From Bdellovibrionales bacterium (lineage in GTDB: Bacteria; Pseudomonadota; Alphaproteobacteria; JAIXQD01), in assembly GCA_050248995.1 (NCBI GenBank), contig JBFWRI010000002.1:17355-81354 (forward strand): 64,000 bases of DNA, given 5' to 3'. Position 1 is the stretch's first letter; every line of letters starts with the position of its first letter. Under the pieces are notes generated by a model. The model did not search any database. It was not told where the DNA came from and saw nothing but the letters and a program-made list of their open reading frames with translations. Positions 767 to 27,700 of this stretch are shown here, piece by piece. The position numbers and the translations under genes were made by a program.

Positions 767-875
767 ATATAATTAGCTGGTTTTAAATCGTAGTGCAAAA
801 GTCAGTGACTTTATTCATGCGCGTCACGCACTGAGAAATTTCTTCGCCGCCAAATGCATGGCCTGCGAAAGTAGG

Positions 876-3625
<2,750 letters not shown>

Positions 3626-3857: not shown

Positions 3858-3932
3858 GGTGGAGCTAGACGGAATCGAACCGACGACATCCTGCTTGCAA
3901 AGCAGGCGCTCTACCAGCTGAGCTATAGCCCC
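3858..3932 (-). tRNA. tRNA-Ala (anticodon TGC) in the 16S-23S spacer
   Basis: The reverse complement is GGGGCTATAGCTCAGCTGGTAGAGCGCCTGCTTTGCAAGCAGG...GGTTCGATTCCGTCTAGCTCCACCA, a canonical cloverleaf. Confidence 0.9.
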
Positions 3933-3959
3933 TGAATGGTCTCATCCACGCGCGGAAAA

Positions 3960-4036
3960 TGGTGGGCCTGGTAAGATTTGAACTTACGACCTCACGCTTA
4001 TCAAGCGCGCGCTCTAACCAACTGAGCTACAAGCCC
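3960..4036 (-). tRNA. tRNA-Ile (anticodon GAT) in the 16S-23S spacer
   Basis: The reverse complement is GGGCTTGTAGCTCAGTTGGTTAGAGCGCGCGCTTGATAAGCGTGAGGTCGTAAGTTCAAATCTTACCAGGCCCACCA. Confidence 0.9.
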
Positions 4037-4122: not shown

Positions 4123-5626
<1,504 letters not shown>

Positions 5627-6389
5627 TTGTACAATTCAAAGATTGTACTGCAGGTCACTAATTGCTCCGAAGAGCAAATATCCTGCCGAGGGTTGTTCTT
5701 GTACATAGATCAATCAGTACCGAAGTACTGATGACTACCTAAGCAACTCATCCGAAGACGAGTTCTTACTAATAACCAACTGACCGAAGTCAGTCGGCTC
5801 TTATAACTCATTCGTTTGCACGAATGAGCCATGAACGACTTGGCAAGGATACAAATCAGCGACCTTCCATTGTGCTGTATTACTACAGCACTGTGTGACA
5901 CCAATAACGATCACTTACACGTGACGAATCACGCGCAAGGCCGCCGCCTTTGCATCCCTTCATCAACATCAACAATGTCAAAGACCAGATCATGAATTGC
6001 ACAAAGAACCCCACATCAATACCGGAGCATTGAGCGGCGTTTCTTGTTTTTTCTTGATCCCCCCACCAAATCCGAAGAATTGGCAGACCCAACCGAATCA
6101 CGATCAGGCGCGCAAACTACTGAAATGATTTGGATATGTAAAGAACAATTTACGACTTTTTTATTTTTATCTGTGGGTATTCAAAAAGTACAATGTTTAT
6201 AGGCTTTTCTTACACCTTCGATCCCACCTCAGAAACACATAATGTATCCTGTCATAACTGATTTCAGAAATCAAGAAAAGCGCCAATGTTTTTATTTAAC
6301 ATATTGTTTTTAAATACTTATTTCTGTTCTTAGAAGGGTCGCGTCTACTTTATCAATTTTGGTGGTAATAAAAGTAAATCTAAGCTCAG
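5627..6389 (-). promoter_or_regulatory. rRNA operon leader and promoter region, shared with the divergent promoter of the 6390 gene
   Basis: Non-coding stretch upstream of 16S. Positions 5715-5828 hold four consecutive hairpins; 6100-6390 is strongly AT-rich. No credible ORF. Confidence 0.4.
5715..5828 (-). other. Four tandem stem-loops in the 16S leader transcript; three have loop CGAA on the plus strand, which is a C-UUCG-G tetraloop on the rRNA strand
   Basis: The four inverted repeats are:
- 5715-5730: cagtac-cgaa-gtactg.
- 5745-5764: aactcatc-cgaa-gacgagtt.
- 5779-5794: actgac-cgaa-gtcagt.
- 5807-5828: ctcattcg-tttgca-cgaatgag. Confidence 0.5.
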
Positions 6390-8042
6390 ATGGTAAGCAT
6401 GAATCAGTGCATGCGCCTTACGGTTGTATCAGGGCTTTTATTGGGTGTTTTAAGCGGGCCCGTGTGGGCACGCGACGACATTATGCCGCCACCCTCTGCC
6501 GCGCCACGCACAAAAGTGATCAGCCAGCGACTGGCCGATGGCCCGGAAGGAACATCTGCTGGCGCAAAATCTTCTCGCAACACAGCCAGCACTTCACGCG
6601 ACATGACGGGCAGTGCGCAAGCGCTTGATGGTGCAAGTCTGCGTTTGGGAAATACGGAACTGCGTCTTGCCGGCTTGATTGTGGCGCCGGTAACAACACC
6701 TGATGGTATCACTGCGCGCACTGCGCTTGATCGTCTGATTGAAGGACAAAGTTTGAATTGCGTGAGACGTGATCGCGAACGTGATGGCCGTCTTCTGGTA
6801 TCCTGCACGCGTGGTGATGGCAGTGATGTCGCTGCTGAAATGCTGCGCAACGGTGCAGCATTATACAGTCGCAGCGCAACCCTGCCAGACGCGACGGTTG
6901 CCAGCTATCGCGTCGCTGAAGGTGAAGCCCAATATAACAAGCGTGGCCTGTGGGCCAGCGTGAAATCACCCGCAGCGCCGCCGCCTGTTGTAACGGCGCA
7001 ACCCGCACCCGTGAAAGTAGCGCCGCTTCCAGCGGCACCAGCAGCAGCCGCTGCCAAAGAGCAGGCGCCACCACCAGCGAACGACAATGTTCCGGCAAAA
7101 GCAGCTGTAGCAACCGTGTCGGGCTATACAGCACCGGCACCCACCGAGAGCGGCTCGAATGTCGGCACATTTGTGATGGCCGGCGTTCTGATTGGCATCA
7201 TGCTGCTAGGGCTGGCGCTGTTCGATTTTCTGCAGCGCCGCCGCATCCGCTATGAGAGCGAACTTGAAATCCAGCAAAACCGCCAAATTGTTGCAGCCGC
7301 TATTGCCGGCGAACTGGCAGCAGCGCGCGATGTATGCGACACACGCCTGCAGACAATGGCCGGCGGCGGCGAAGCACGGTGGCCGCGCCTGCGCAGTTAT
7401 GTCTACCAGTCACATGTTGATAAGATCGGCCTAATGGGCCCATACCTGGCACGCCAGATTGCCACCATTTACGGCCAGATGGCCGACTTTGCCCCGGGCC
7501 GCGACGAGGCACCCGCCAGCCGCGAGATCGTCAACCGCAACGTACTGACAAAAACACTGGATCGCCTGTGCGGCTATATCGACACGGCGCTGGAAGGCCT
7601 GTCATACACCGAAGCCAGCGGCGAAATTTTCATGCCAAGCTTCCAGCCTGAATACCAGCAACAGGCCATCACTGATCAAACAAATGGTGGTGGCAATAAC
7701 CCGCGTGGTGGCCATAGCAAGGCGCGTATTGTGCGTACGCAGGTTCGGGCACGCCACCAGCAACTGCCCCGCCCGGCGGCCGTTCCCCAGCAGCCGCAGG
7801 CCCGCAGCAAAGAAGAAATCCACGAGGCGGTTGAAGAAGAGACGCGTGCGATCAAAGAAAAGCTGGCCAAGACGCATGGGTACAACATGGAGAGCAAGGA
7901 AAAGCCACAGCAGCCGCGTAGCGCCAAGCCCGGCCACAGTCGACGCCAACGCTTGAAGCAAGTTGCCGATATGATGGAAAAAGATATCGCCGCAATGGCG
8001 GAAGATATGTTGGCCGCTGACGAAGAAAGCCGCGCTGTATAA
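6390..8042 (+). CDS. Membrane-anchored protein with an N-terminal signal peptide and a staphylococcal-nuclease (SNase/thermonuclease)-like domain. A Pro/Ala-rich linker, one TM helix and a cytoplasmic domain of unknown function follow.
   Basis: The signal-like N-terminus is MRLTVVSGLLLGVLSGPVWA. The SNase-like block is RLGNTELRLAGLIVAP...DRERDGRLLVSCTRGDGSDVAAEMLRNGAALY...YNKRGLWA. The PA-rich linker is APPPVVTAQPAPVKVAPLPAAPAAAAA. The TM helix is FVMAGVLIGIMLLGLALFDFL. The start may instead be at internal Met 6399 or 6411. Confidence 0.6.
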   Translation: MVSMNQCMRLTVVSGLLLGVLSGPVWARDDIMPPPSAAPRTKVISQRLADGPEGTSAGAKSSRNTASTSRDMTGSAQALDGASLRLGNTELRLAGLIVAPVTTPDGITARTALDRLIEGQSLNCVRRDRERDGRLLVSCTRGDGSDVAAEMLRNGAALYSRSATLPDATVASYRVAEGEAQYNKRGLWASVKSPAAPPPVVTAQPAPVKVAPLPAAPAAAAAKEQAPPPANDNVPAKAAVATVSGYTAPAPTESGSNVGTFVMAGVLIGIMLLGLALFDFLQRRRIRYESELEIQQNRQIVAAAIAGELAAARDVCDTRLQTMAGGGEARWPRLRSYVYQSHVDKIGLMGPYLARQIATIYGQMADFAPGRDEAPASREIVNRNVLTKTLDRLCGYIDTALEGLSYTEASGEIFMPSFQPEYQQQAITDQTNGGGNNPRGGHSKARIVRTQVRARHQQLPRPAAVPQQPQARSKEEIHEAVEEETRAIKEKLAKTHGYNMESKEKPQQPRSAKPGHSRRQRLKQVADMMEKDIAAMAEDMLAADEESRAV

Positions 8043-8765
8043 TTAGTACATATGCATCCCGCCGTTAATCGACAGCGCGGAACCTGTGATAAACCCGGCC
8101 TCGTCGGCAGCAAGGAATACGACTGCGCGGGCGATCTCGTCAGCCTGGCCCAAACGGCCCACAGGAATTTTTCCGACCAGTTTTGTCAGAACATCTGCCG
8201 GCACGTTCTTCAAAAGATCGGTATCGATGTAACCGGGCGTAATCGTGTTGACGGCAATGCCCTTGGCGGCGCTTTCCAGCGCCAGTGACTTGGTGAAGCC
8301 ATGCACCCCTGCCTTAGCCGCCGAATAATTTGTCAGACCATACTGGCCGCTTTCGCCATTGATGCTCCCGATATTGATGATACGGCCAAAACCACGGGCA
8401 CGCATGCCCTCGATTACACTGCGGCAGGTGTTGAACACACTGGTCAGGTTGGTGCGGATCACGGCATCCCATTGCTCGAATGTCATCTTGTGAAGGGTCG
8501 CGTCTTTTGAGATACCGGCGTTGTTAACAAGAATTTCAATCGGGCCGTATTCATCCTCGATCTTCTTGATACCAGCTTGCACCGCAGCGAAGTCGCTGAC
8601 GTCGAATTTGGCAGTCGGAATGCCGGTTTGTTTGGTGAAAGACGTAGCGGCTGCGTCATTGCCATTATAGTTAGCCACAACCTTATAACCCGCCGCTTTC
8701 AGCGCTACAGCTGCGGCTGCGCCAATACCACGCGTCGCGCCGGTTACCAATGCCAGACGTGCCAT
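8043..8765 (-). CDS. phaB: Acetoacetyl-CoA reductase (SDR family)
   Basis: 240 aa. The SDR glycine motif is TGATRGIG, the catalytic block is YSAAKAG, and the NNAG motif is present. Length and context with phaA, phaC and phaR fit. Confidence 0.85.
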   Translation of the reverse strand: MARLALVTGATRGIGAAAAVALKAAGYKVVANYNGNDAAATSFTKQTGIPTAKFDVSDFAAVQAGIKKIEDEYGPIEILVNNAGISKDATLHKMTFEQWDAVIRTNLTSVFNTCRSVIEGMRARGFGRIINIGSINGESGQYGLTNYSAAKAGVHGFTKSLALESAAKGIAVNTITPGYIDTDLLKNVPADVLTKLVGKIPVGRLGQADEIARAVVFLAADEAGFITGSALSINGGMHMY

Positions 8766-8847: not shown

Positions 8848-9570
8848 TTACTGGATATTGCGCTTGATCGCATCACCGATCATACCGCCAACGCCTTGCA
8901 TCGTGTTAGCGCCGCCACCGGCTTGCCAACCCGTTTCTTTTAGGCAAGCCAGCAGTGCGCTGGTCGGACGCCAGCCGCATGCGGGCTGGCCGCCCGGCCC
9001 CTGTACGACTTCGCAATGACCAAGCTTCTGGAAACAGGCGTAACTGTCACGCCATTCGCAGGTACTCATAATATTCCCGGCTTCGGCTTTATTTAGACAA
9101 AGCTGCTTGCTGCATCCGGCAATGACGCATTCAAAGTTTTGCGGGACGGCTGATGGCGGAACAAGATTGGGGTTAGGCATTGGCACAGGCGTCGGGAGTT
9201 GCACAGTCGGCTGGGGCGGCTGCGCAACCGTTGGCGGCACTGGTGCAGCAGGGGCGGCCTGTGCTGGCTGCGATCCGGGCAGGGTAAAAGATCCATCACC
9301 CCTAGGAAGCGCTTTCTCTTCAAGGCATTTCTGCAAGGCTGGCGTTGTGCGCCAACCGCATGACCGGGCGGTATGGTTTGCGCGCTCACAGACACCGTAG
9401 GAGCGATAGCACTCGTCCGTTACCTTCGGGTTGCACTTGAATTTTGCAAACACAGACATCTCTGTTGTGACGCAGGTGTCATTGCAGATGACCACGCAGC
9501 CGCTTGTTGTGGCAGCAGACGCAGAACCAACCGAAAGAGTTAGAAGAAGCAGGGCGAACAGTATTCTCAT
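8848..9570 (-). CDS. Secreted cysteine-rich protein with two copies of an 8-Cys domain separated by a Pro-rich linker
   Basis: The signal peptide is MRILFALLLLTLSVGSASA. Domain 1 is CVVICNDTCV...KFKCNPKVTDECYRSYGVCERANHTARSCGWRTTPALQKCLEE. The linker is AAPAAPVPPTVAQPPQPTVQLPTPVPMPNPNLVPP. Domain 2 is CVIAGCSKQLC...STCEWRDSYACFQKLGHCEVV...ACGWRPTSALLACLKE. Confidence 0.6.
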   Translation of the reverse strand: MRILFALLLLTLSVGSASAATTSGCVVICNDTCVTTEMSVFAKFKCNPKVTDECYRSYGVCERANHTARSCGWRTTPALQKCLEEKALPRGDGSFTLPGSQPAQAAPAAPVPPTVAQPPQPTVQLPTPVPMPNPNLVPPSAVPQNFECVIAGCSKQLCLNKAEAGNIMSTCEWRDSYACFQKLGHCEVVQGPGGQPACGWRPTSALLACLKETGWQAGGGANTMQGVGGMIGDAIKRNIQ

Positions 9571-9932: not shown

Positions 9933-10217
9933 TTACATCTCTCCTGTCTGCATGAGCCCTTGATGCAAGGCTGGGTCTTTTTCTTTCAGACATTGCAGCA
10001 GTTCGGGCGTACGGCGCCACGCACAGTCAGTTCCAGCCTTTTCGCACACGCCAAATTTCTGGAAACACATATCACTGGCTTCAGGTCCGCACATGAATTT
10101 GGCGATCCGGGCCATAGATTGCGTGACGCAGTTACTGACGCATACAACGATACATGAATCTTCTTTCGCTACTGCCGGGACCGCTACCAAAGCCAGCAGG
10201 AGTAAAAGAACCCGCAC
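9933..10217 (-). CDS. Secreted small protein carrying one copy of the same 8-Cys domain
   Basis: The GTG at 10217 gives the signal peptide MRVLLLLLALVAVPAVA. It lies 3 nt after the phaA stop; the longer ORF up to 10265 would overlap phaA. The domain is CIVVCVSNCV...KFMCGPEASDMCFQKFGVCEKAGTDCAWRRTPELLQCLKEK, which aligns with both repeats in the 240-aa neighbour. Confidence 0.55.
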   Translation of the reverse strand: MRVLLLLLALVAVPAVAKEDSCIVVCVSNCVTQSMARIAKFMCGPEASDMCFQKFGVCEKAGTDCAWRRTPELLQCLKEKDPALHQGLMQTGEM

Positions 10218-10219
10218 GC

Positions 10220-11392
10220 CTAGCGCTCGACCAGCAGGGCAACACCCATACCGCCGCCGATGCACAGTGCAGCAAGTCCTTTCTTGGCATCGCGGCGCTG
10301 CATTTCATGCAACAATGTCACCAGAATGCGGCAACCGCTGGCACCGATCGGGTGACCTAGTGCAATCGCGCCGCCGTTGACGTTGGTCTTTGATGTATCA
10401 ACACCCAATTCCTTAATAACGGCCAGTGACTGCGCAGCGAAAGCTTCGTTCAGCTCGATCAGGTCAACATCGTTCAGCGACCAACCGGCTTTTTCCAACG
10501 CTGCTTTCACAGCCGGCACCGGGCCAAGCCCCATGGTGGCCGGGTCAACGCCTGCCGTTGCAAAACCGGCGATGCGCGCCAGCGGCGTCAGGCCACGTTT
10601 CTTGGCTTCGTCAGCTGTCATCAGCACAACTGCTGCAGCACCGTCGTTGATGCCGCTGGCGTTACCGGCTGTTACCGTGCCATCGGGCTTAAAGGCCGGC
10701 TTCAGCTTGCCCAACGCCTCGGCTGTGCTACCGGCGCGCGGGAATTCGTCATTGGCAATCGTTATGTCTTCCTTGCGACCTTTGATGACAATCGGCAGGA
10801 TCTCATCGGCAAACTTGCCGCCCTTCATAGCGGCTTCAGCCTTTTGCTGACTGGCGGCCGAAAACTCATCCTGCTGCTGGCGCGTGATCTGGTATTGTTC
10901 GGCCAGGTTTTCAGCCGTGATGCCCATGTGGTAATTGTTGAAAACATCCCACAGGCCGTCCTTGATCATGCTGTCGACCATCCTAGCGTCGCCCATTTTG
11001 ACGCCATCACGGATATTCATGACGTGCGGCGCCTGGCTCATGCTTTCCTGACCGCCCACAACCATGATACTGGCATCGCCCGCCTTGATGGCCTGTGCGC
11101 CCAGCGCAACAGCACGCAGCCCGCTGCCGCATACCTGGTTAATCGTCACAGCTGTCTTTTCCTTCGGCACACCAGCGGCAATCGCTGCCTGACGGGCCGG
11201 GTTCTGACCAACACCTGCGGTTAGCACCTGCCCCATGATGACTTCGGTCACATCGGCGGCTGTAACCTTGGCGCGCTTTAGCGCTTCGGTGATAACTGCC
11301 GAGCCCAGCTGGACCGCCGACTGGCTGGCAAGCCCCCCGTTGAAATTGCCGATCGCGGTCCGAACGGCGCTGACGATTACGATATCTGACAT
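10220..11392 (-). CDS. phaA: Acetyl-CoA acetyltransferase (biosynthetic thiolase)
   Basis: 390 aa. Thiolase hallmarks are the active-site Cys region [10 protein letters not shown], the GHPIGASG block and the C-terminal CIGGGMG. Confidence 0.9.
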
Positions 11393-18784: not shown

Positions 18785-21777
18785 GCGTCTGGCACACTCT
18801 TAGCCGCGTCGTTCTGACGACAATCTGGGTCGTCATAATTGCGGCGGTCATTTATGCCATTCACTACGAACTAACAACAAGCCGCCTGCAGGCCGAGCTG
18901 TTCTCGCGCTATGCTAAAAATATGACGTATGAGCTGCAGGACGGCCCCAACCCGAATCTGCCCTATCCCGAAGGCGGTCCATACGATGTGCGCCTGGGCT
19001 ATACTCGTCTACCCAAGATGCTCGACACTTTAACTGTGCAGGGTTTCAAGATCATTCGCCAGCCCCGCCTCTCGCAGCCGCTACAGGAATTCATGGCTAT
19101 GGGCGGGTATGCGATATACCCGGAAAAAACCAGTGCCGGCATCACCATTCTGGGCGCTCAGGGTAACGAGCTGCACAGCCGCCGCTTTCCGACCCGCACC
19201 TTTGCGGACTATGATGAGATACCTCCCCTGGTCGCACAGACGCTTCTGTTCATCGAAAACCGCGAACTACTGGACCCGGCGACGCCGTACCGCAACCCGG
19301 CTGTTGAATGGGATCGCTTCCTGTTCGCAGCGCTGGGCCAGCTGGTGAAAGTACTCAATCCGGGCATGAATATCGGCGGCGGCAGCACACTGGCAACACA
19401 GATCGAAAAGTTCCGTCACTCGGACGAAGGTCGTACGGGCGGCATCCACGACAAACTGATCCAGATGCTATCAGCCTCGGTGCGCGCTTACCGTCAAGGC
19501 CCTCTGACCATGGAAGAACGTAAACGCGTTGTTCTGGATTATATGAACAGTACGCCGCTGACAGCCCGCGCTGGTCTTGGTGAAGTCAACGGCCTTGGTG
19601 ACGGCCTGTGGGCGTGGTTTGGTACAGAACTGAATGATGTCATTGATATGCTGTCCCGTCAGGCTAATGATGTCGAGACCTTCACGCGACAAGCCGAACT
19701 ATATAAACAGGTGCTGGCCCTGTTACTGGCGCAGCGTCGCCCGTCTTACTACCTGATTACCGATCGCGAAGCATTGAATGAACTTGCCAATACTTATCTG
19801 CAACTGCTGTCAACGGCCGGGATTATCACCCCCGCCTTGCAGAAAGTCGCAACGTCATCACCGCTGCGTTTTTCAAGTGAAGTCCATATTCCCGGCGGCG
19901 AAGACTTTGTAGCCCTGAAGGCGGCTAACGCCGTGCGGCTGGCGCTGCTGCGCACTCTCAACCTGAACAGTCTGTATGAACTGGATCGCATCGATGCAAC
20001 GGTTCACAGCACGCTTGATAGCGAAAAGCAGGACAAAGTCATCAGCCTGCTGCAAGACTTGATGGATAAATCGAAGCTGGAAGAACATGGCCTGATCGGT
20101 GAGAATCTTTTGCGGACCGACAATGATGTCAGTAAGGTTATTTACAGTTTTGTGCTGTACGAGCGCACACCTTTCGGCAACGTCGTTCGTGTTCAGGCCG
20201 ATAACCTCGACAAGCCGCTTGATCTGAATGAAGGCGCCAAGCTTGATCTGGGGTCAACCGCCAAGCTGCGCACGCTTGAAACATACCTTAGCGCCCTGGC
20301 CGACCTTTATGACCGTTATAAACAGCTGCAAAAAGCCGATCTGCAGATTGCTCAGGATGACGCAGCCGATAATCTGACGCGCTGGGTAGTCGATATGCTG
20401 CGCGCCTACCCCGATATCACGTTACAGCAGCTACTGGCATCGGCCATGACACGGCGCTATTCCGCCAGCACAAATGAAACATTTTTTACGGGCGGCGGCG
20501 CTCACACGTTTGTAAACTTCCAATCAACCGATAATGGCAAGGTCGTTTCAGTTCAGGAAGCCCTGCGCATGTCGATCAACCTGCCGTTCGTGCGCCTGAT
20601 GCGCGATGTGGTTGGCTATTATATCGCGCAAGGGCCGATTGCGCGGCGCGACATACTTGGTAACCCTGATAATCCTGCGCGCCAGGCCTATCTGGCCCGC
20701 TACGCCGATCGTGAAGGACGCACTTTCCTGAACCGTTTCTACAACGCTTACAGGAACCTGACACCTGAGGCTGCACTGGACAGACTGGCTGGCCGTGGCC
20801 GAAAGACGTGGGAAGCACAGGCAACCATCTTCCGCAGCATCAAACCCAAAGCCGGCCAGACCGCCTTCCGCAACTTTATGACGGCGCGCATGACAACGCT
20901 TGGTCTGGCCACCCCGACTTTTGAGGAAGCAAGCGCACTATACGAAAACTATGGCATGGATAAGTACAACCTTGCCGACCGGGGCTATATCGCCGGCGTC
21001 AACCCGCTGGAGCTTTGGCTTGCCGCCTATATGCAAAGCAACCCCAAGGCATCGCGCGACCAGATCCTGCAGGCCAGCGTTGAAGAGCGCCAGGCTGCCT
21101 ATGAATGGCTATTCCGCACAGGATACAAGGGCGCACAGGATACGCGCATCCGTATCCTGCTGGAGCAGGATGCCTTCAACCGCATCCACCAACACTGGGA
21201 AAAACTTGGCTACCCGTTCGACCACCTTGTGCCGTCACTGGCGACATCCATTGGCAGCAGCGCTGACCGGCCGGGCGCACTGGCCGAGCTGATGGGCATC
21301 ATTCTGAATGATGGCATCCGCATGCCGACAATCCGCGTCAGCGAAATCGAATTCGCCAAGGGCACGCCCTATGAAACGCTGTTGCGCCGCGATGGCGCCC
21401 AACAGGTGCAGGGTGAACGCGTCATACGCAGCGAGGTTGCACAGACATTGAAAGCCGCGCTGGCCGATGTGGTGGAAAACGGTACCGCTAAACGCATGAA
21501 AGGCGTTGTTGTCGACGGCGCGGGCCAACCCGTACCTATTGGCGGCAAGACGGGCACAGGCGACCACCGCTTTGAACTGTTCGGCCCCGGCGGCCGCCTG
21601 ATCTCGTCGCGCGCCGTCGCCCGCACGGCAACGTTCGTCTTCTATCTGGGCGATAAATACTTCGGAACCATTACCGCGCACGTTGAAGGCGAAGAAGCCG
21701 ACAAATACGAATTCACCAGCGGTATGGTGTCGCAGGTCCTTAAAACAATTATCGGAAAAATCGGCCCGCTGTATTAG
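18781..21777 (+). CDS. Class A penicillin-binding protein, PBP1C-like (GT51 transglycosylase plus transpeptidase)
   Basis: It has an N-terminal TM anchor. GT51 motifs are GGGSTLATQIEKF (compare GGSTITQQ) and EERKRVVLDYMN (compare KEEILELYLN). The transpeptidase motifs are STAK, STN and KTGTG. The ATGA overlap with the hisS stop indicates translational coupling. Confidence 0.7.
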   Translation: MSVWHTLSRVVLTTIWVVIIAAVIYAIHYELTTSRLQAELFSRYAKNMTYELQDGPNPNLPYPEGGPYDVRLGYTRLPKMLDTLTVQGFKIIRQPRLSQPLQEFMAMGGYAIYPEKTSAGITILGAQGNELHSRRFPTRTFADYDEIPPLVAQTLLFIENRELLDPATPYRNPAVEWDRFLFAALGQLVKVLNPGMNIGGGSTLATQIEKFRHSDEGRTGGIHDKLIQMLSASVRAYRQGPLTMEERKRVVLDYMNSTPLTARAGLGEVNGLGDGLWAWFGTELNDVIDMLSRQANDVETFTRQAELYKQVLALLLAQRRPSYYLITDREALNELANTYLQLLSTAGIITPALQKVATSSPLRFSSEVHIPGGEDFVALKAANAVRLALLRTLNLNSLYELDRIDATVHSTLDSEKQDKVISLLQDLMDKSKLEEHGLIGENLLRTDNDVSKVIYSFVLYERTPFGNVVRVQADNLDKPLDLNEGAKLDLGSTAKLRTLETYLSALADLYDRYKQLQKADLQIAQDDAADNLTRWVVDMLRAYPDITLQQLLASAMTRRYSASTNETFFTGGGAHTFVNFQSTDNGKVVSVQEALRMSINLPFVRLMRDVVGYYIAQGPIARRDILGNPDNPARQAYLARYADREGRTFLNRFYNAYRNLTPEAALDRLAGRGRKTWEAQATIFRSIKPKAGQTAFRNFMTARMTTLGLATPTFEEASALYENYGMDKYNLADRGYIAGVNPLELWLAAYMQSNPKASRDQILQASVEERQAAYEWLFRTGYKGAQDTRIRILLEQDAFNRIHQHWEKLGYPFDHLVPSLATSIGSSADRPGALAELMGIILNDGIRMPTIRVSEIEFAKGTPYETLLRRDGAQQVQGERVIRSEVAQTLKAALADVVENGTAKRMKGVVVDGAGQPVPIGGKTGTGDHRFELFGPGGRLISSRAVARTATFVFYLGDKYFGTITAHVEGEEADKYEFTSGMVSQVLKTIIGKIGPLY

Positions 21778-24700
21778 CGGTTTTTGGCAGCAGCCGGTTG
21801 TGCCTTGGCCGGCGCCTGCACCGACAGGCGCTGTTCCAGTTTCTTCAGGCGGTCTTCAAACTGCCTGTCTTTCACGTTCAGCTTCTGCTGCAGGCTGCCG
21901 TTTTCCTTCTTCAGCGCTGCATTCTCGGCTTTCAGCGCTTTCAGGTCGCCTTCCAGCGCGGCCAGACGCTTCTCAACGCTATCTTTCCAATCGAACAGCT
22001 GGGCGACCTTGGTTTGCAAGCCATCCACCATATCGATCAGCTTCTTGACGGCTTCGATGACCGGCAGCACCAACTTGTCGTATTGTACTGCCATAAAGCC
22101 TTTATCGTCACGGGTGATGACTTCCGGCAATACCTTCTCGACTTCCTGCGCGATCACACCGAAGTCGTCCTTATTATCCTTGTTCCACTTATAGTGAACA
22201 GCCTGCAGGCCTTTCACCACCAGGAAGGCATCGCGTTCGAAATTCTTCACATCATGCTTCAGGCGCGCGTCAGAGCTGTGGAAGTAACCGCCGGTCAGCA
22301 GGTTACCCGTAGCCGCAATAGCATAGCTGGCGTTCACAGCAGAGCCGTTCAGGCCGATCTTGCCGGTGAAAGTCACATCACCGCCGCTGGCTACGGTAAC
22401 ACGGGTTGTGTTTGTCGTACCAATCGTAACAGCAGCAGCTTCCTGCGCCACAATGCTAAGCGTACCAGTACCGCGATGGGTTAAAGTGCTGCCAGCGTTA
22501 GCGCCTGTATTATAACGAAGCAAGCGAAGACCATAATCGGTATAGGTATCATCGCCCACAAAGTCGATATAAGCATACCTGTTGCCCGAGCCCGCGGCGT
22601 TGACGGCAACCTCAGATGCAGAAATTGTGGTCGCGCTACTGGCTGTCAGCGAACCGGTGGCAGAGATAGCCCCCGTTACAGCAAGCGACGATGTTGTTAG
22701 CGTCGCATAAATCGAATTGTTGATGTACCAATAGTGCGCCGTGTCATTGCGATGGCGGTAGGCCCAGTTACCATCAGCGTCCAAAAAGCCGATATCATTG
22801 CTGCTGTTACCATAAACACGACCGCGCAGGGTGCCATCGCTGGTGCGCAGACCCAGGTTTACAACAGAGGCATCATTTGATTGGAGACTGAATAGAGAGG
22901 CGTTATCGCCATACATATATTGCGCGCCTGCAGCGCCGAACTTCAGGTAGTTACTATAAACGTGGACCCCACCGTCAACACGCAGGTTGCCAGGCGTATA
23001 AACACCACTGGTGAAGGCGCCGCCCTGGTTCAGGCGCAGCCAGCTGTCGTTGCTGCGGAAGGCTTCCTTGCCCTGCAGGTTGACGTTGTTGCCGGTTACC
23101 GCCAGCTTAGCCACACCGTCGGTTGTGATGGTCACCGTACCAGTACCGGCATCCACCACTTCCACACTGCTGTCACCCTCGCTGATGGTGTCGGTGGCTA
23201 CCGTGCCGGTAATGGTGCCGCTGACCGTCAGGTCGCCTGTGATGTTGGTGTTACCGGCCACGTTCAGCTTATAGGCGCCCGGATCCGAGATACCGACGCC
23301 AACGTCGCCATCGGCGGCAATACGGATACCCTTGGCGCTGGCCGACCACTGGCCGATTGTCAGGCCGCCATTTTCAACGGTGCCGCTTGAATAGACCAAT
23401 GTGCTGTCGCCAGCCACGACCATCGGGTTCCACGAAGCGCCAGTGCTGTTCGGGTTAATCGCGGTCCATTGCGTGCCATCCGTGGTGCGGATACCCCATG
23501 TCGCCGTCGCGCCCGTACCACGCTGTACGTTCAGACGTGAGCTGCTCATCGAGGTAGTGCCAAGACCAACGTCACCATTGTAGTCAAGGCGCATGCGCTC
23601 GGTTACCGACGCTGCGCCATCGGCTGTTGTGTAGAATACCAGTTGGCCCGGCATATCGTTGGTGCCGGGCGTTGTGCCGACTTCGGCCGTGATGCGCGCT
23701 GTCTCGATCGCCGTAGCGCCATCATAGGCATAGTAGCGAAGGTAACCGACATCGTCGCCCGAGCTGACGGCAGCCGCCGTGGTTGTATCACCACGGTATT
23801 TATAGAAGTTGAAGGTTCCCGGTGTTGCGTCATTGCTGTTGCGCTGCGCCATGAAGCCTGAGCCACCGGTCTCGCCACGCGAACGTATATAGGCGTTGCT
23901 AAGTGTAGTAGCGCTGCTTTGCAGTATGTCTATGGCGTAAGCGGGGCCAGTGGTGCCCATACCCAGGCGGCCACCACCCGTGAAACGGGCGATTTCGGCT
24001 ACCGTTGTATCGGTCGTGCCCGTTGAACCCCCACCATGGCCGCGAATGATGACACCCGAGCTACCGGTACCGGTCGCCGTACCACTGTTCAGGTACAGCC
24101 AGCCGCCATTGGTATCGGTTGCGCCGCTTTGTGCGCCACCGGCGGTAATGAACAGACTGTTGCCGGCGCCGCTTGACGCGCGTTCGATAGCGATGGTGCG
24201 GCTTGCACCCTGGCCAAGGGTAATTATTCCTGTCGTGGGGGCCGTCGTCGTACCGATACCCAGGCCCGTCGCGGTCAGGATCATCGCTGTGCTGCCGCCG
24301 CCCGAGTTATATTGCGTGGCGTTGTGGCTACCGCCGACATACCAGGCGAAGGCACTACCTGAACGGTTGTAAAGCGTGTTACTTTGCACGCCGATGCCGT
24401 AAGAAGCGTTGTACAGGTTGACCATCTGACGCACAGCAGCACCAAAGTTCAACTCGGCCGTGCCCACGATGTCGATATCATCAACATCAACCGTCAGCGC
24501 GGCAGTGCCGTCAGCTGTTACCGCGATGCTGCCGGTGCCTGCGTCGGTTACCGTAACGCTGCTGTCACCCTGCGTGATGCTGTTGCTGGCCACTGTGCCC
24601 GTTATGGTGCCGCTGACCGTCAGGTCGCCGGTGATGTTGGTGTTACCGGCCACGTTCAACTTATAGGCGCCGGGATCCGAGATGCCGATACCGATATCGC

Positions 24701-27700
24701 CGTCAGAGGCGATGCGCAAACCCTTGGCGCTGGCCGACCATGGGCCGATCGTCAACGCGCCGGTATCAATGCTGCCGTTGCTGTATGTTAACAGGAAGTC
24801 CCCTGCGGCTGTGAGTGTATTTGACGCGCCCGCCGATGCGTTGGGGTTGATTGATAAAAATTGCGTTCCATCGGTAAACTGCGCAGCTGCAGTGGCGCTG
24901 GCGCCGGCCGAACGTATAACATGCAGCTTTGTTGTTGGCGTTGATGTACCAACACCCACCAGGCCGGCCGCCGTTACGTTCAGCGGCAGTGAGCCTACGG
25001 CAGCACTTACGCCAATCCCCAGCACATCATCGGCTGCATCGGTCACATAGAAGTTGGCAAATGGGGTTGTGCCCGTGCCATCCGATTCACGAATAACAAA
25101 GCCATACTGGTCGTCTTCAGGTCGCACTTCGATCCAGCTTTGTGTTCCGCTTCCTGAAACCGTACTAATCACAAGAGAGCCGTTGGCAGCGGTGAAGAGA
25201 TCGGCGATTTCAACCGTTTCGGCGGCACCGCGGATGCGAATACCAGCCGAATTTGACATCGTATCAATATCCAACGGAGTGGCCGGTGACTGGCCGTTGA
25301 TACCGACATAGCCACTGTTGGCTGCAATCAGCGGCGTCACGGCGACGCCCGAAGTATTGGTTGTAATGATACTAATACCCGCAGCGACATAACTTGCACC
25401 TTGCGAAGCCGCAACAGCCTGAATCCATGCCGAGTTGCGGATGGTGCCGCCGCTATCGACGCCGCGGAACATCAAGGTGCCAAGGCCGTCCGATACGCTG
25501 ATGCTGTTATCCGACGGCCGCTTATCCAGAATGAAGTAGGGCCCGGTGGCGTCGGTATTGGTGTTTATAAGAACAACCTGTGAGCCATATGACTGCGCAC
25601 TGCTCATCACGGCAACGCCGCCACTCATATACATCTGCTGCGTACCGCCCGCCGTGAAACCAAGACTGTTTTCACCAACACGGTACATACCCGTATCGTT
25701 GCTGGTATCAGATGCAAACGTATAGGCAGGTGCAGCCGCTGAACCATTGGGCGCATGGATAAAGGCCGTTGATGTAACCACGCCGGCCGTAACTGTCAGT
25801 TCATCAGCGCCGCCGTCGGCATCCAGCACGATGTTACCAGTGCCGGCATCCGTGACTGTGGCATGGCTATCGCCTTCGGTGATGGCATTGCCCGAACCGC
25901 CACCGCCACTAAGAGAATTCAGCGCGGTCCAGCTGCCGCCGCTGTCTTTGTATTCAATCGCACCGGCGTTATCACGGATACCGTAACCTGTGCTGCCAAC
26001 CGTACTATCGAAGTTGATATAGCCGCTGGCCGGATGAACAACGTTGCCCGTAAAAGTGGCCTCGCCGTTCGTTAGATTGATCGTGAAGACATGTGCTTCG
26101 AAAGCGGTTGCCGCCGCGTTCCAGCGCGACAGGTAGAAGACATCGTCCCACGACTGGATATTCATTGCCTTGCCGTTGGCACCATTGTTATCGAGGAACG
26201 CCATATTGGCGCGGATCAAGGCAGCGCCATTTACGTCAAGCTTCATGGCCGGAGAATCGGTGCCGATGCCTACATATCCGGTTGCTGAGTCCGCCGCCAT
26301 GATGGGGTTGTGAACAACGCCACTGAACGAGTCGGTTGTATCCTGCAACAACAACTTGCCAGCGCCATTCAGCGCCCAACGGAAACCTGTTCCGTTAGCT
26401 TGAAGAAGTTCGATATCCGCGTAGTCAGAAGACGAGCGAATGACGCCAGCCACATCAAATTTCGCAGATGGGGTTGATGTGCCCACACCCACATTACCGG
26501 CTGCTGTAATATTAAATGGCAGCGAGCCTGCCGCCGCATTTACACCAATGCCCAGCACATCATCCGTAGTATCTGTGACATAGAAGTTGGCATAGGTAGT
26601 CAACGTAGAACCGTCTGATGCCCGCAGAATAAGGCCCGACGCATCGTCTTCGCCCCGCAGGTCAATATAACTGCTTGTTCCGGTGCCGCCCTTGGTGCTG
26701 ATAATTAAAGGACCGTTCGCGCCGACAAAAAGATCGGCGATTTCAACCGTTTCTGCCAAGCCGCGCAGACGCAATCCCGACGAGTTTGAAGCGGTATCAA
26801 TATCCAGCTTCGCGCCACTAGCACTGGCTGTGCCGATCGCCACGTTACCGGCCGGCATCAGGGCAATATCGCCGGCGTCAGTCGACAGGCGGAACTCAGC
26901 GCCGTTACTCATTGCCAGCAGGCCGTAACGGTCATTGCCTGTATCGTAGAGCTGCACGGTCTTGCCGTCACGCATATCGAACGACGAATTCATGCGGATA
27001 TCGCCGCTGCTGGCGGCAATCGCCACGCTGCCGCTGTCATCAAGGTTGAAATCAAGATTAACCGCGCCATCCAGCGTGATGGTGCTGCCGCTGTTGCTGA
27101 TGATTTCACCGGCAGCCAGCGTTAACGGAACAGCCGCTGTAATGCCGCCGGTCAAAGCCGTCATTACCGCAACACCATCAACGGTTGTTACAACGCTGCC
27201 CGTGCCGGCGTCGGTAACGACGACGCTGCTATCACCCTCGCTAATGCTTGTCGTACTACCGCCACCACCGCAACCGGTGCAGGTACCGCTAACCGTCAGG
27301 TCACCAGCGATAGTGACGGTGCCATCCGATGCGATTGTCAGTCGGTTATCTGTGCCGTTTGTCTTAAACGCCATCAGGTTGGTGGCGTGGTCATAGCGGA
27401 TTTGGCCGACGTTATCATCGGCATCATCGCCGAACATGATGTAGTTCATATTCGCAGCCGGTGACAGGAAGTTCAGTGCGATGTCGGCGTCATCTTCTAT
27501 GGTTATCCCGTTTGAACCATATCCGTGCGGCGTACCGCCACTGGCGCCACTGTATATATGCAGCTTGGCCAGTGGGGTGATCGAGCCACCGATACCAACC
27601 CGGCCGCTGCTGTTAATGCGCATGCGCTCGGTTACCGAGCTGGCGCCATCAGCTGTGGTGAAGAACATCAGGCGGCCTGGCATATCGTTGGTGCCTGGCG

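What the first reader, a model, noticed from the sequence alone, without database searches (positions are those of the whole stretch)
6390..8042. Membrane-tethered SNase-like nuclease with a periplasmic catalytic domain and a sizeable cytoplasmic domain, divergent from the rRNA operon
The order is signal peptide, then thermonuclease-like block, then a PA-rich linker (PPPVVTAQPAPVKVAPLPAAPAAAAA), a single TM helix, and a cytoplasmic region of about 300 aa that is basic and Gln/Arg-rich at its end. This is the architecture of a transmembrane signalling or anchored extracellular nuclease, not a simple secreted enzyme. The cytoplasmic domain has no recognisable family.
Basis: partly seen in the sequence, partly recalled or inferred. 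Interest (0 to 1): 0.55.

Follow-up and report, generated by a model that had tools for sequence, protein, structure and literature searches.

The report
Membrane-spanning protein with a dead nuclease domain
This gene encodes a membrane-spanning protein whose outer domain has the fold of a well-known DNA-cutting enzyme but has lost the residues needed to cut, so it most likely binds something rather than degrading it, and it is joined to a highly conserved inner domain that no database describes.

Summary
The described architecture is real. ORF 6390-8042(+) encodes a signal peptide, an SNase-fold domain (Pfam PF00565, E 4e-8; model TM 0.77 to S. aureus nuclease), a Pro/Ala linker, one TM helix and a 269-aa cytoplasmic region.

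"Nuclease with a catalytic domain" is not supported. The window protein has Ala at the D21 position (a Ca ligand) and no acidic residue anywhere in the stretch that should hold D40 and the general base E43. It keeps only 2 of 9 classical active-site residues (R35, R87). Across 113 family members, 112 lack any Asp/Glu in that stretch ("RLFGIVPPQL" replaces "RLxGIDAPE"). Intact relatives aligned the same way do show DGDT/GIDAPE/YGR.

The most conserved part is a roughly 130-aa cytoplasmic helical domain next to the membrane (pLDDT 91). It has no match in Pfam, NCBIfam, PADLOC, PDB or BFVD. The family has about 136 cluster representatives, all from uncultured Micavibrio-like Alphaproteobacteria, and pipelines label it "thermonuclease". 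The rRNA adjacency is incidental.

Best reading: a non-catalytic, anion- or phosphate-binding outer domain coupled across the membrane to a new interaction domain, acting as a receptor or scaffold rather than an enzyme. Ligand and output are unknown.

The parts
6390..8042 (+). Whole ORF, 550 aa including the stop at 8040-8042. Alternative in-frame starts lie at 6399 and 6411.
6390..6470 (+). Sec-type signal peptide, residues 1-27, with predicted cleavage at VWA|RD
   Evidence: Kyte-Doolittle profile; family N-termini end in AxA|Q
6483..6518 (+). Conserved Pro-rich motif at the mature N-terminus. It reads MPPPSAAPRTKV in the window; the family consensus is APxPxxAPRTPV.
   Evidence: Invariant or near-invariant P, R and V columns; low pLDDT, so not docked in the model
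6600..6968 (+). Periplasmic SNase-fold domain, residues 71-193, with a degenerate active site. Equivalents: D19=D80, D21=A82, R35=R92, D40/E43 stretch=L96-T103 with no acidic residue, K84=R131, Y85=D132, R87=R134, Y113=R161, Y115=A163. C124 and C139 are an invariant Cys pair.
6969..7157 (+). Low-complexity Pro/Ala-rich periplasmic linker, residues 194-256. It is poorly conserved and predicted disordered.
7167..7232 (+). Single transmembrane helix, residues about 260-281. In the model it continues as one helix into the cytoplasmic domain.
7233..7634 (+). Conserved cytoplasmic helical domain next to the membrane, residues 282-415. Motifs: AAALxGELxAAR..C, WPRLR, IGLLGPxLARQIAxIYGQ. It is the most conserved part of the protein and matches no described family.
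7635..8039 (+). Variable, mostly disordered cytoplasmic tail, residues 416-550, rich in Q, R, K and E
7962..8009 (+). Conserved acidic amphipathic motif near the C-terminus. It reads VADMMEKDIAAMAEDM in the window; the family consensus is (P)DYAxLIEEDMAxxSF.

Best explanation
The gene encodes a bitopic inner-membrane protein. After signal-peptide cleavage the N-terminal part lies in the periplasm and the C-terminal part in the cytoplasm.

The periplasmic domain descends from ordinary periplasmic 'GIDAPE' staphylococcal-type nucleases and has become a pseudo-nuclease. The Ca2+ ligand D40 and the general base E43 are gone in essentially the whole family, and D21 is also gone in the window copy. 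The two phosphate-clamping arginines (R35, R87) are kept and further basic residues have been added (an invariant Arg at the Y113 position, Arg at K84, and Arg or Lys at T22 in most members). The former active site is therefore predicted to be a metal-free, positively charged pocket that binds a phosphorylated or anionic ligand without cutting it. Candidate ligands are nucleic acid, nucleotide or an envelope phospholipid or glycan. An invariant Cys pair probably forms a periplasmic disulfide.

A flexible Pro/Ala linker and a single TM helix connect this domain to a strongly conserved, previously undescribed helical domain pressed against the inner face of the membrane. A disordered tail follows, carrying two conserved short amphipathic motifs that look like partner-docking sites. 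The protein therefore most likely works as a transmembrane receptor or scaffold, coupling a periplasmic binding event or anchorage to a cytoplasmic interaction platform, and not as an enzyme.

Shown: the architecture, the fold, the loss of catalytic residues, the conservation pattern, and the absence of a known family for the cytoplasmic domain. Inferred: the topology, the disulfide, ligand binding, and partner docking or signalling.
For: - Architecture and topology. The same layout occurs in 118 of 154 relatives.
- Fold: pLDDT above 90 for the SNase domain; Foldseek E 1.6e-7 and TM 0.77 to S. aureus nuclease Delta+PHS, which like this family lacks the 44-49 loop.
- Loss of catalysis: in 113 full-length domains the D40 column is P82/T8/V7/A7 with a single D. 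The E43 column is L91/M6/V4 with no acidic residue. 112 of 113 have no D/E anywhere in columns 36-43. Identity to the nine classical residues is 0-4, with a mode of 2; the window has 2.
- Positive control: the intact relatives L018_A and L018_B, aligned the same way, show DGDT / GIDAPE / YGR and score 56 and 44 bits with the family profile, against 14 bits for S. aureus SNase.
- Retained or added basic residues: R35 in 105/113, R87 in 78/113, the Y113 column is R in 113/113, the K84 column is R69/H21/K7, and the T22 column is R53/K30.
- Cys pair: 113 of 113.
- Roles of Ca2+, R35, R87 and E43 in SNase catalysis: PMC8436206.
- Cytoplasmic domain: it has the highest conservation in the protein. 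The AF2 model has pLDDT 90.9 and pTM 0.82 and is all-helical. 136 representative clusters match at E <= 1e-10.
- Tail motifs are conserved across the family.
Against: - No experiment exists, and no ligand or partner is identified.
- R35, R87, D19 and (in most members, but not the window) an acidic residue at the D21 position remain, so a non-canonical catalytic arrangement cannot be excluded by sequence alone.
- S. aureus Nuc2 is active although it lacks 2 of the 9 residues (PMC3994088).
- The cytoplasmic domain contains no recognisable output module (kinase, HTH, cyclase or anti-sigma), so 'signalling' is unsupported beyond the architecture.
- Gene neighbours are not conserved family-wide.
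Confidence: 0.6

Rival explanations
1. It is an active, membrane-tethered periplasmic nuclease, as annotated ('thermonuclease family protein', 'endonuclease YncB'). It would use a non-canonical site built from the retained R35 and R87, D19, the acidic residue at position 21 in most members, and the invariant acidic RDRDRDG hairpin.
For: - The Pfam SNase match is above threshold.
- R35 and R87 are kept in the window and in most members, and the D21 column is E or D in 95 of 113.
- The hairpin acidic residues are conserved.
- Nuc2 is active with only 7 of 9 residues.
- Source annotations call it a thermonuclease.
Against: - The general base E43 and the Ca ligand D40 are replaced by Leu/Val and Pro/Val in 112 of 113 members.
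- The window copy also lacks D21 and keeps only 2 of 9 residues.
- Close relatives that are plausibly active keep the whole site, so the loss is specific and ancient.
- The catalytic-loop replacement 'IVPPQL' is itself conserved, which indicates selection for another function.
Confidence: 0.12
2. It is a purely structural envelope tether or positional marker with no ligand sensing. The periplasmic domain and the N-terminal Pro-rich motif would hold on to peptidoglycan or an outer-membrane component. The cytoplasmic domain and tail would recruit a cytoplasmic partner, for example the GPP34-like protein encoded immediately upstream in one subclade, to a fixed membrane site.
For: - A long disordered Pro/Ala linker could span the periplasm.
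- A Pro-rich motif is conserved at the mature N-terminus.
- A GPP34 gene lies 8-61 bp upstream on the same strand in 5 of the 6 GPP34-linked loci (of 16), and also in L017; in L003 the called ORFs overlap by 47 bp.
- Docking-like motifs are conserved in the tail.
Against: - The GPP34 linkage is confined to one subclade and is absent from the 64-kb window.
- No peptidoglycan-binding or outer-membrane-binding motif was recognised by Pfam.
- The retention and addition of pocket arginines points to a small anionic ligand rather than a protein or glycan anchor.
Confidence: 0.18
3. It is a domesticated, fused remnant of a mobile-element gene pair (an exported nuclease plus a small membrane protein carrying the same helical domain). 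The membrane protein would originally control, anchor or protect against the nuclease, and the fused chromosomal form would retain a defence- or exclusion-type role.
For: - In L018 and L019 an intact signal-peptide SNase gene is followed after 4 bp by P0143 (two TM helices plus the same domain; blastp E 7e-9 to the window) inside a primase/Dam/HTH element.
- Other stand-alone relatives lie in phage or island contexts.
Against: - Only 1 of 5 stand-alone relatives examined has an SNase neighbour.
- The fused family lies in ordinary chromosomal contexts next to housekeeping genes (rRNA, phaAB, ATP synthase).
- PADLOC finds no significant defence-family match in the three fused members scanned; the only hit is weak (P0045, SNc+LTD model, E 0.026, 11.7 bits).
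- The nuclease site is dead in the fused form.
Confidence: 0.07

Closest known systems
Staphylococcal nuclease / thermonuclease (S. aureus Nuc; Pfam PF00565 SNase)
   Same: The fold is the same: a beta-barrel plus three helices, with TM 0.77 and rmsd 2.8 A. The sequence matches above the Pfam threshold. The R35 and R87 equivalents, D19 and the C-terminal GLW motif are kept.
   Different: - It lacks the Ca2+ ligands D21 and D40 and the general base E43, plus Y85, Y113 and Y115.
- The 44-49 loop is deleted.
- It carries a conserved Cys pair.
- It is fused through a TM helix to a 269-aa cytoplasmic region.
S. aureus Nuc2, the characterised membrane-anchored SNase (PMC3994088)
   Same: Both have an SNase-family domain held at the outer face of the cytoplasmic membrane.
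   Different: - Nuc2 is a type II protein with an N-terminal signal anchor and no cytoplasmic domain. It keeps 7 of 9 active-site residues and is a Ca2+-dependent DNase.
- The window protein has a cleavable signal peptide, a TM helix after the domain, a large conserved cytoplasmic domain, and 2 of 9 residues.
Proteobacterial exported SNase homologues with an intact site (e.g. the two genes in locus L018; the kind usually annotated YncB/thermonuclease)
   Same: They are the closest sequence relatives of the periplasmic domain (56 and 44 bits with the family profile). L018_A, the closer of the two, shares the signal peptide, the Cys pair and the 'ARAALD' helix motif. L018_B shares the signal peptide and the Cys pair, and has 'ATAALA' at the helix position.
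   Different: They keep DGDT / GIDAPE / YGR and are small soluble proteins. In L018 the helical membrane domain is encoded by a separate adjacent gene instead of being fused.
SN domains of eukaryotic Tudor-SN (SND1), recalled from my own knowledge and not tested here
   Same: They are SNase-fold domains that have lost the canonical catalytic residues and are generally treated as nucleic-acid or protein-binding modules.
   Different: They are eukaryotic, cytoplasmic or nuclear, arranged in tandem with a Tudor domain, and not membrane proteins. No specific sequence relationship was shown.

Membership tests
SNase / thermonuclease superfamily (Pfam PF00565), as a fold family | Sequence match above the curated Pfam threshold | tested here: met
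   E 4.3e-8, 34 bits against a cut-off of 21; a family profile hits S. aureus thermonuclease chains at E about 3e-5
SNase / thermonuclease superfamily (Pfam PF00565), as a fold family | OB-type beta-barrel plus three helices | tested here: met
   AF2 model pLDDT above 90 over the domain; Foldseek TM 0.77 and rmsd 2.8 A to SNase structures
Catalytically competent Ca2+-dependent SNase enzymes | Ca2+ ligands D21 and D40 | tested here: not met
   The window has A82 at D21 and no acidic residue in L96-T103. In the family the D40 column holds one D in 113.
Catalytically competent Ca2+-dependent SNase enzymes | General base E43 | tested here: not met
   The E43 column is L91/M6/V4/I3 with no acidic residue in 113 members. 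The controls L018_A, L018_B and SNase A show E.
Catalytically competent Ca2+-dependent SNase enzymes | Phosphate-binding R35 and R87 | tested here: met
   Window R92 and R134; family 105/113 and 78/113
Catalytically competent Ca2+-dependent SNase enzymes | Measured Ca2+-dependent hydrolysis of DNA or RNA | not testable with these tools
   Needs purified protein
Nuc2-type membrane-anchored nucleases | [quoted passage not shown] | tested here: not met
   A cleavable-looking signal peptide, a TM helix after the domain, and a 269-aa cytoplasmic region; Nuc2 description in PMC3994088
Bitopic transmembrane sensors or regulators with known outputs (ToxR-like, anti-sigma, kinase or cyclase receptors) | A recognisable cytoplasmic output domain | tested here: not met
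   No match in Pfam, NCBIfam or PADLOC. No significant PDB or BFVD fold match: best E 0.9, and the hits are generic helical bundles. The PDB profile search found nothing meaningful.
Bitopic transmembrane sensors or regulators with known outputs (ToxR-like, anti-sigma, kinase or cyclase receptors) | An extracytoplasmic ligand-binding domain joined by one TM helix to a conserved cytoplasmic domain | tested here: met
   (architecture only; ligand binding itself was not tested)

The most novel reading that the evidence does not exclude
This is the founding member of an undescribed class of bacterial pseudoenzyme receptors. A dead SNase ectodomain would sense periplasmic nucleic acid or nucleotides without degrading them, for instance material released from prey by Micavibrio-like epibiotic predators. 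It would transmit that event through the TM helix to a novel helical domain next to the membrane, which recruits partners through the conserved tail motifs. The same helical domain would be an ancient membrane module that also circulates on phages and mobile elements, sometimes paired with an active exported nuclease.
Probability: 0.15. Interest if true: 0.7.

Novelty: new variant of a known kind. Interest (0 to 1): 0.45.

Why it matters
- It corrects an annotation. About 136 cluster representatives at 50% identity carry this family's cytoplasmic domain (113 have a full-length SNase-like domain). Every named member seen here is labelled 'thermonuclease' or 'endonuclease YncB', yet 112 of those 113 domains lack the catalytic machinery.
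- It defines a well-folded, strongly conserved cytoplasmic domain next to the membrane that has no family or structural relative in the libraries searched. This domain also occurs as a stand-alone membrane protein in phage and mobile-element contexts.
- If the ectodomain is a ligand sensor, this would be a rare bacterial example of an enzyme fold turned into a receptor. It occurs in a poorly known, largely uncultured lineage related to the predator Micavibrio.
- As it stands this is a clear but modest finding: a new architecture and a pseudoenzyme call, with no known function.

Tried and rejected
- rRNA-operon adjacency as a functional clue: rejected. Only the closest relative, L001, keeps rRNA-target-phaB-phaA. 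The other 15 loci do not.
- Family-wide conserved neighbours: none. GPP34 lies upstream in 6 of 16 loci and cobW lies divergently in 6 of 16. Each is confined to one subclade and neither is in the window.
- Promoter and terminator scan of 5600-8200: no more hits than shuffled controls.
- Cytoplasmic domain against Pfam, NCBIfam, PADLOC, PDB sequences, and Foldseek against PDB and BFVD: nothing significant. The best fold hits are generic helical bundles (E at least 0.9, TM at most 0.45 to PDB structures, at most 0.52 in BFVD).
- The second homologous-protein search, with the domain profile, returned only fragments because of the word prefilter.
- Literature searches for Micavibrio plus thermonuclease, and for inactive periplasmic SNase-like domains, found nothing relevant.
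- Split SNase plus TM-domain gene pair as general 'fusion evidence': found for P0143 only, in 1 of 5 stand-alone relatives checked. It is kept as a lead and not used as proof.
- Model coordinates are not exposed to scripts, so the Cys-Cys distance, pocket electrostatics and tail docking could not be measured.
Full report
**1. The observation**

The ORF listing gives a 550-aa ORF at exactly 6390..8042 on the + strand. Rfam places a complete rRNA operon on the minus strand: 5S at 650-764, 23S at 874-3621, two tRNAs at 3860-4036 and 16S at 4126-5624. The ORF is therefore divergent from the operon, with a 765-bp gap.

An identical protein (P0001) starts at the third in-frame ATG (6411, 543 aa). 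It is in NCBI as 'MAG: thermonuclease family protein [Bdellovibrionales bacterium]'.

A Kyte-Doolittle scan finds only two hydrophobic segments:
- Residues 7-25, followed by V-W-A|R-D, which is a Sec signal peptide obeying the -3/-1 rule.
- A strong TM helix at about 260-281 (peak 2.5), followed by QRRRIRY. This puts everything after it in the cytoplasm.

Pfam finds SNase (PF00565) at residues 106-189 with E 4.3e-8 and 34 bits against a cut-off of 21. Residues 194-256 are a linker with 29% Ala and 18% Pro. The cytoplasmic part is 269 aa, and its last 130 aa are mildly basic and rich in Gln and Arg. Every descriptive element of the finding is therefore correct.

**2. It is a real, conserved family**

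The first homology search found only 11 relatives among 5.8 billion clusters, all with the same layout. A profile of the cytoplasmic block alone (A3) was searched against 1.84 billion representatives. It found 175 proteins at E <= 1e-3 and 136 at E <= 1e-10. Most are 500-700 aa with the block at about residues 280-440.

Domain and TM mapping show that 118 of the 154 proteins collected carry the SNase-like block, then a TM helix, then the cytoplasmic block. Most of the rest are contig-end fragments.

In reference genomes the family was found only in uncultured Alphaproteobacteria, in MAGs labelled Micavibrio, 'Bdellovibrionales' or Rhodospirillaceae. NCBI taxonomy files Micavibrio under Bdellovibrionales, which explains the label on the source MAG. 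Sources name these proteins 'thermonuclease family protein' or 'endonuclease YncB'.

**3. The SNase-like domain has the fold but not the active site**

With a 70-sequence alignment, AlphaFold2 models residues about 61-190 (543-aa numbering) at pLDDT above 90, as a beta-barrel plus three helices. Foldseek matches S. aureus nuclease structures at E 1.6e-7, TM 0.77 and rmsd 2.8 A over 128 columns. The best matches are the Delta+PHS variants, which lack the 44-49 loop, and this family also lacks that loop.

In SNase, hydrolysis needs three things: a Ca2+-coordinated phosphate, polarisation by R35 and R87, and a water molecule activated by E43 (PMC8436206). From my own knowledge, the Ca2+ ligands are D21, D40 and the T41 carbonyl.

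Alignment with S. aureus nuclease A gives these equivalents for the window protein:

| SNase residue | Window residue |
|---|---|
| D19 | D80 |
| D21 | A82 |
| R35 | R92 |
| D40/E43 stretch | L96-T103 (LIVAPVTT), no Asp or Glu |
| K84 | R131 |
| Y85 | D132 |
| R87 | R134 |
| Y113 | R161 |
| Y115 | A163 |

Two alignment registers are possible for the loop. Because the stretch has no Asp or Glu at all, the conclusion does not depend on register.

Across 113 full-length domains:
- The D40 column is P82/T8/V7/A7 with one D.
- The E43 column is L91/M6/V4/I3 with no acidic residue.
- 112 of 113 have no acidic residue anywhere in columns 36-43. The motif 'RLFGIVPPQL' replaces 'RLxGIDAPE'.
- Identity to the nine classically mutagenised residues ranges from 0 to 4, with a mode of 2. 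The window has 2.

S. aureus Nuc2 is active with 7 of 9 of these residues (PMC3994088). Partial loss is therefore tolerated, but the loss here is far more extensive and removes the general base.

There is a positive control. Two exported SNase genes in locus L018, aligned by the same procedure, show intact DGDT, GIDAPE and YGR motifs. They are much closer to this family than S. aureus nuclease is, scoring 56 and 44 bits against 14 with the family profile. The loss is therefore real, specific and old.

**4. What the domain keeps and gains**

- R35 is kept in 105 of 113 members and R87 in 78 of 113.
- The Y113 column is Arg in all 113.
- The K84 column is R69/H21/K7.
- The T22 column is Arg or Lys in 83 of 113.
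- D19 is kept in 103 of 113.

The inference is that the pocket changed from a Ca2+ site ringed by four carboxylates to a metal-free cluster of guanidinium groups. That suits binding, not cleavage, of a phosphate or other anionic group.

Two Cys residues (window C124 and C139, aligned to SNase E73 and I92 on the neighbouring beta4 and beta5 strands) are present in 113 of 113 members. This fits a periplasmic disulfide, although the distance could not be measured because model coordinates were not exposed.

A Pro-rich motif (APxPxxAPRTPV; MPPPSAAPRTKV in the window) sits at the predicted mature N-terminus and is nearly invariant. It is not confidently docked in the model.

**5. The cytoplasmic part**

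Per-column conservation shows that residues 298-367 and 388-407 are the most conserved parts of the whole protein, more so than the SNase-like domain. Invariant or near-invariant motifs are AAALxGELxAAR..C, WPRLR and IGLLGPxLARQIAxIYGQxxDY.

With 48 sequences, AlphaFold2 gives pLDDT 90.9 and pTM 0.82. The model has a long helix continuing from the TM segment, two short helices, and two further helices forming a compact bundle. The full-length model shows the TM helix and the first helix as one continuous helix, residues 250-317.

Nothing recognises this domain:
- Pfam, NCBIfam and PADLOC.
- PDB by sequence and by profile.
- Foldseek against PDB (best E 0.9, TM at most 0.45, generic helical bundles) and against BFVD (best E 0.89).

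The tail after residue 415 is variable and mostly disordered. It carries two conserved short motifs, 'LWxxhRxFAxxH' and an acidic amphipathic '(P)DYAxLIEEDMAxxSF' (VADMMEKDIAAMAEDM in the window), followed by a basic end. These look like docking motifs, which is an inference.

**6. Context**

Only the nearest relative keeps the rRNA-target-phaB-phaA arrangement. This is L001, a 1.64-Mb alphaproteobacterial chromosome with a 16S gene 90% identical to the window's. The rRNA adjacency therefore carries no functional weight.

Two neighbours recur:
- A GPP34 (GOLPH3-like, PF05719) gene lies immediately upstream on the same strand in 6 of 16 loci. The gap is 8-61 bp in five of them, and in L003 the called ORFs overlap by 47 bp.
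- A cobW/COG0523 GTPase gene lies divergently upstream in 6 of 16 loci.

Each is confined to one subclade, with 42-52% and 37-84% identity among the family proteins of the loci concerned. Neither gene is in the 64-kb window. L017, a frameshifted assembly of the same gene, has both. The GPP34 link is a lead for a cytoplasmic partner and no more than that.

**7. Distant stand-alone relatives of the cytoplasmic domain**

The weak tail of the profile search (E 1e-9 to 1e-5) consists of 170-260-aa proteins. Each has one or two N-terminal TM helices followed directly by the same domain. P0143 aligns to the window with blastp E 7e-9 through WPxLR...IGxLGPxLA..IY.

In L018 and L019, P0143 lies 4 bp downstream of an intact signal-peptide SNase gene, within a primase/Dam-methylase/HTH element. 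This is a split version of the window's fusion.

Four other stand-alone relatives have no SNase neighbour. P0151 sits between the terminase and portal genes of a phage (two contigs). P0146 lies in an island of small ORFs with a resolvase nearby. P0141 lies beside an HTH gene, an Imm11-like gene and a giant RTX-like ORF. The 2-kb contig carrying P0149 is too short to be informative. The nuclease/helical-domain association therefore has one independent instance. It suggests an origin but does not prove it.

**8. Interpretation**

The best-supported account is a bitopic receptor or scaffold. It has a non-catalytic, probably anion-binding SNase-fold ectodomain, tethered by a flexible linker and a continuous TM-to-cytoplasm helix to a new, strongly constrained interaction domain with docking motifs in its tail. 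I give this 0.6 overall: about 0.9 for the architecture and topology, about 0.8 for 'not a canonical nuclease', and about 0.45 for 'binds a ligand and couples it across the membrane'.

Rivals are:
- An active nuclease with a non-canonical site (0.12).
- A purely structural tether or positional marker that recruits, for example, GPP34 (0.18).
- A domesticated mobile-element nuclease/membrane-protein module with a defence-type role (0.07).

**9. Novelty and score**

The fold is known, and pseudo-nuclease SN domains are known in eukaryotes. A bacterial family that fuses a dead SNase ectodomain through one TM helix to an undescribed cytoplasmic domain is not in the libraries or the literature searched. 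This is a new variant of a known kind.

It matters as an annotation correction, as the definition of a new conserved domain, and as a candidate enzyme-turned-receptor in a poorly studied predator-related lineage. There is no functional evidence yet. Interest 0.45.

Noticed in passing
L018:3906-5117 (also L019:816-2027), and L018:7602-8075: A mobile-element-like contig (D5-type primase, Dam methylase, HTH repressor) carries two signal-peptide SNase genes with intact DGDT/GIDAPE/YGR sites. The first is followed after 4 bp by a 230-aa protein with two TM helices and the same helical domain as the window protein's cytoplasmic part. This is a split version of the fusion.
   Followed up: partly
L024:5001-5510 and L025:3482-3991: A 169-aa stand-alone relative of the cytoplasmic domain (P0151, one N-terminal TM helix) sits between the large terminase and portal genes of a phage, seen on 12 contigs. 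Another relative (P0146) lies in an island of small ORFs near a resolvase in an 8.8-Mb genome (L022).
   Followed up: partly
L002, L003, L006, L007, L008, L015, L017 (gene immediately upstream of the homologue): A bacterial GPP34 (GOLPH3-like, PF05719) gene lies immediately upstream on the same strand in one subclade of the family (gap 8-61 bp in five of the six loci measured; in L003 the called ORFs overlap by 47 bp; L017 not measured). A cobW/COG0523 GTPase lies divergently upstream in another subclade. L007 and L017 have both. Neither gene is in the window.
   Followed up: partly
window 8848-9570 (-) and 9933-10265 (-): Two paralogous secreted, Cys-rich ORFs (240 and 110 aa; 45% identity over 71 aa, E 4e-19; the longer one holds the Cys-rich module twice, separated by a Pro-rich linker). 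They have no Pfam family and flank a small cupin gene between phaB and phaA.
   Followed up: partly
window 21774-30458 (-): A giant 2894-aa ORF whose only Pfam hit is a C-terminal Peptidase_S74 domain (the intramolecular chaperone of endosialidase or tail-fibre type). This suggests a very large self-cleaving fibre- or adhesin-like protein.
   Followed up: partly
window 6390, 6399, 6411: There are three in-frame ATG codons at the start of the ORF. The NCBI model uses 6411 (543 aa) and a Logan copy is 547 aa. No clear Shine-Dalgarno sequence is visible upstream. The choice does not affect the signal peptide prediction.
   Followed up: no
window 8040-8045: The stop codon of the target gene (8040-8042) directly abuts the stop codon of the convergent phaB-like SDR gene (8043-8765, minus strand). 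There is no intergenic space and no terminator-like hairpin between them.
   Followed up: no
source organism (whole window); L001: The source MAG is labelled 'Bdellovibrionales bacterium', but its relatives are Alphaproteobacteria. NCBI taxonomy still files Micavibrio under Bdellovibrionales. The closest genome (OZ251993.1, 1.64 Mb) has a 16S gene 90% identical and shares the rRNA-target-phaB-phaA order.
   Followed up: partly
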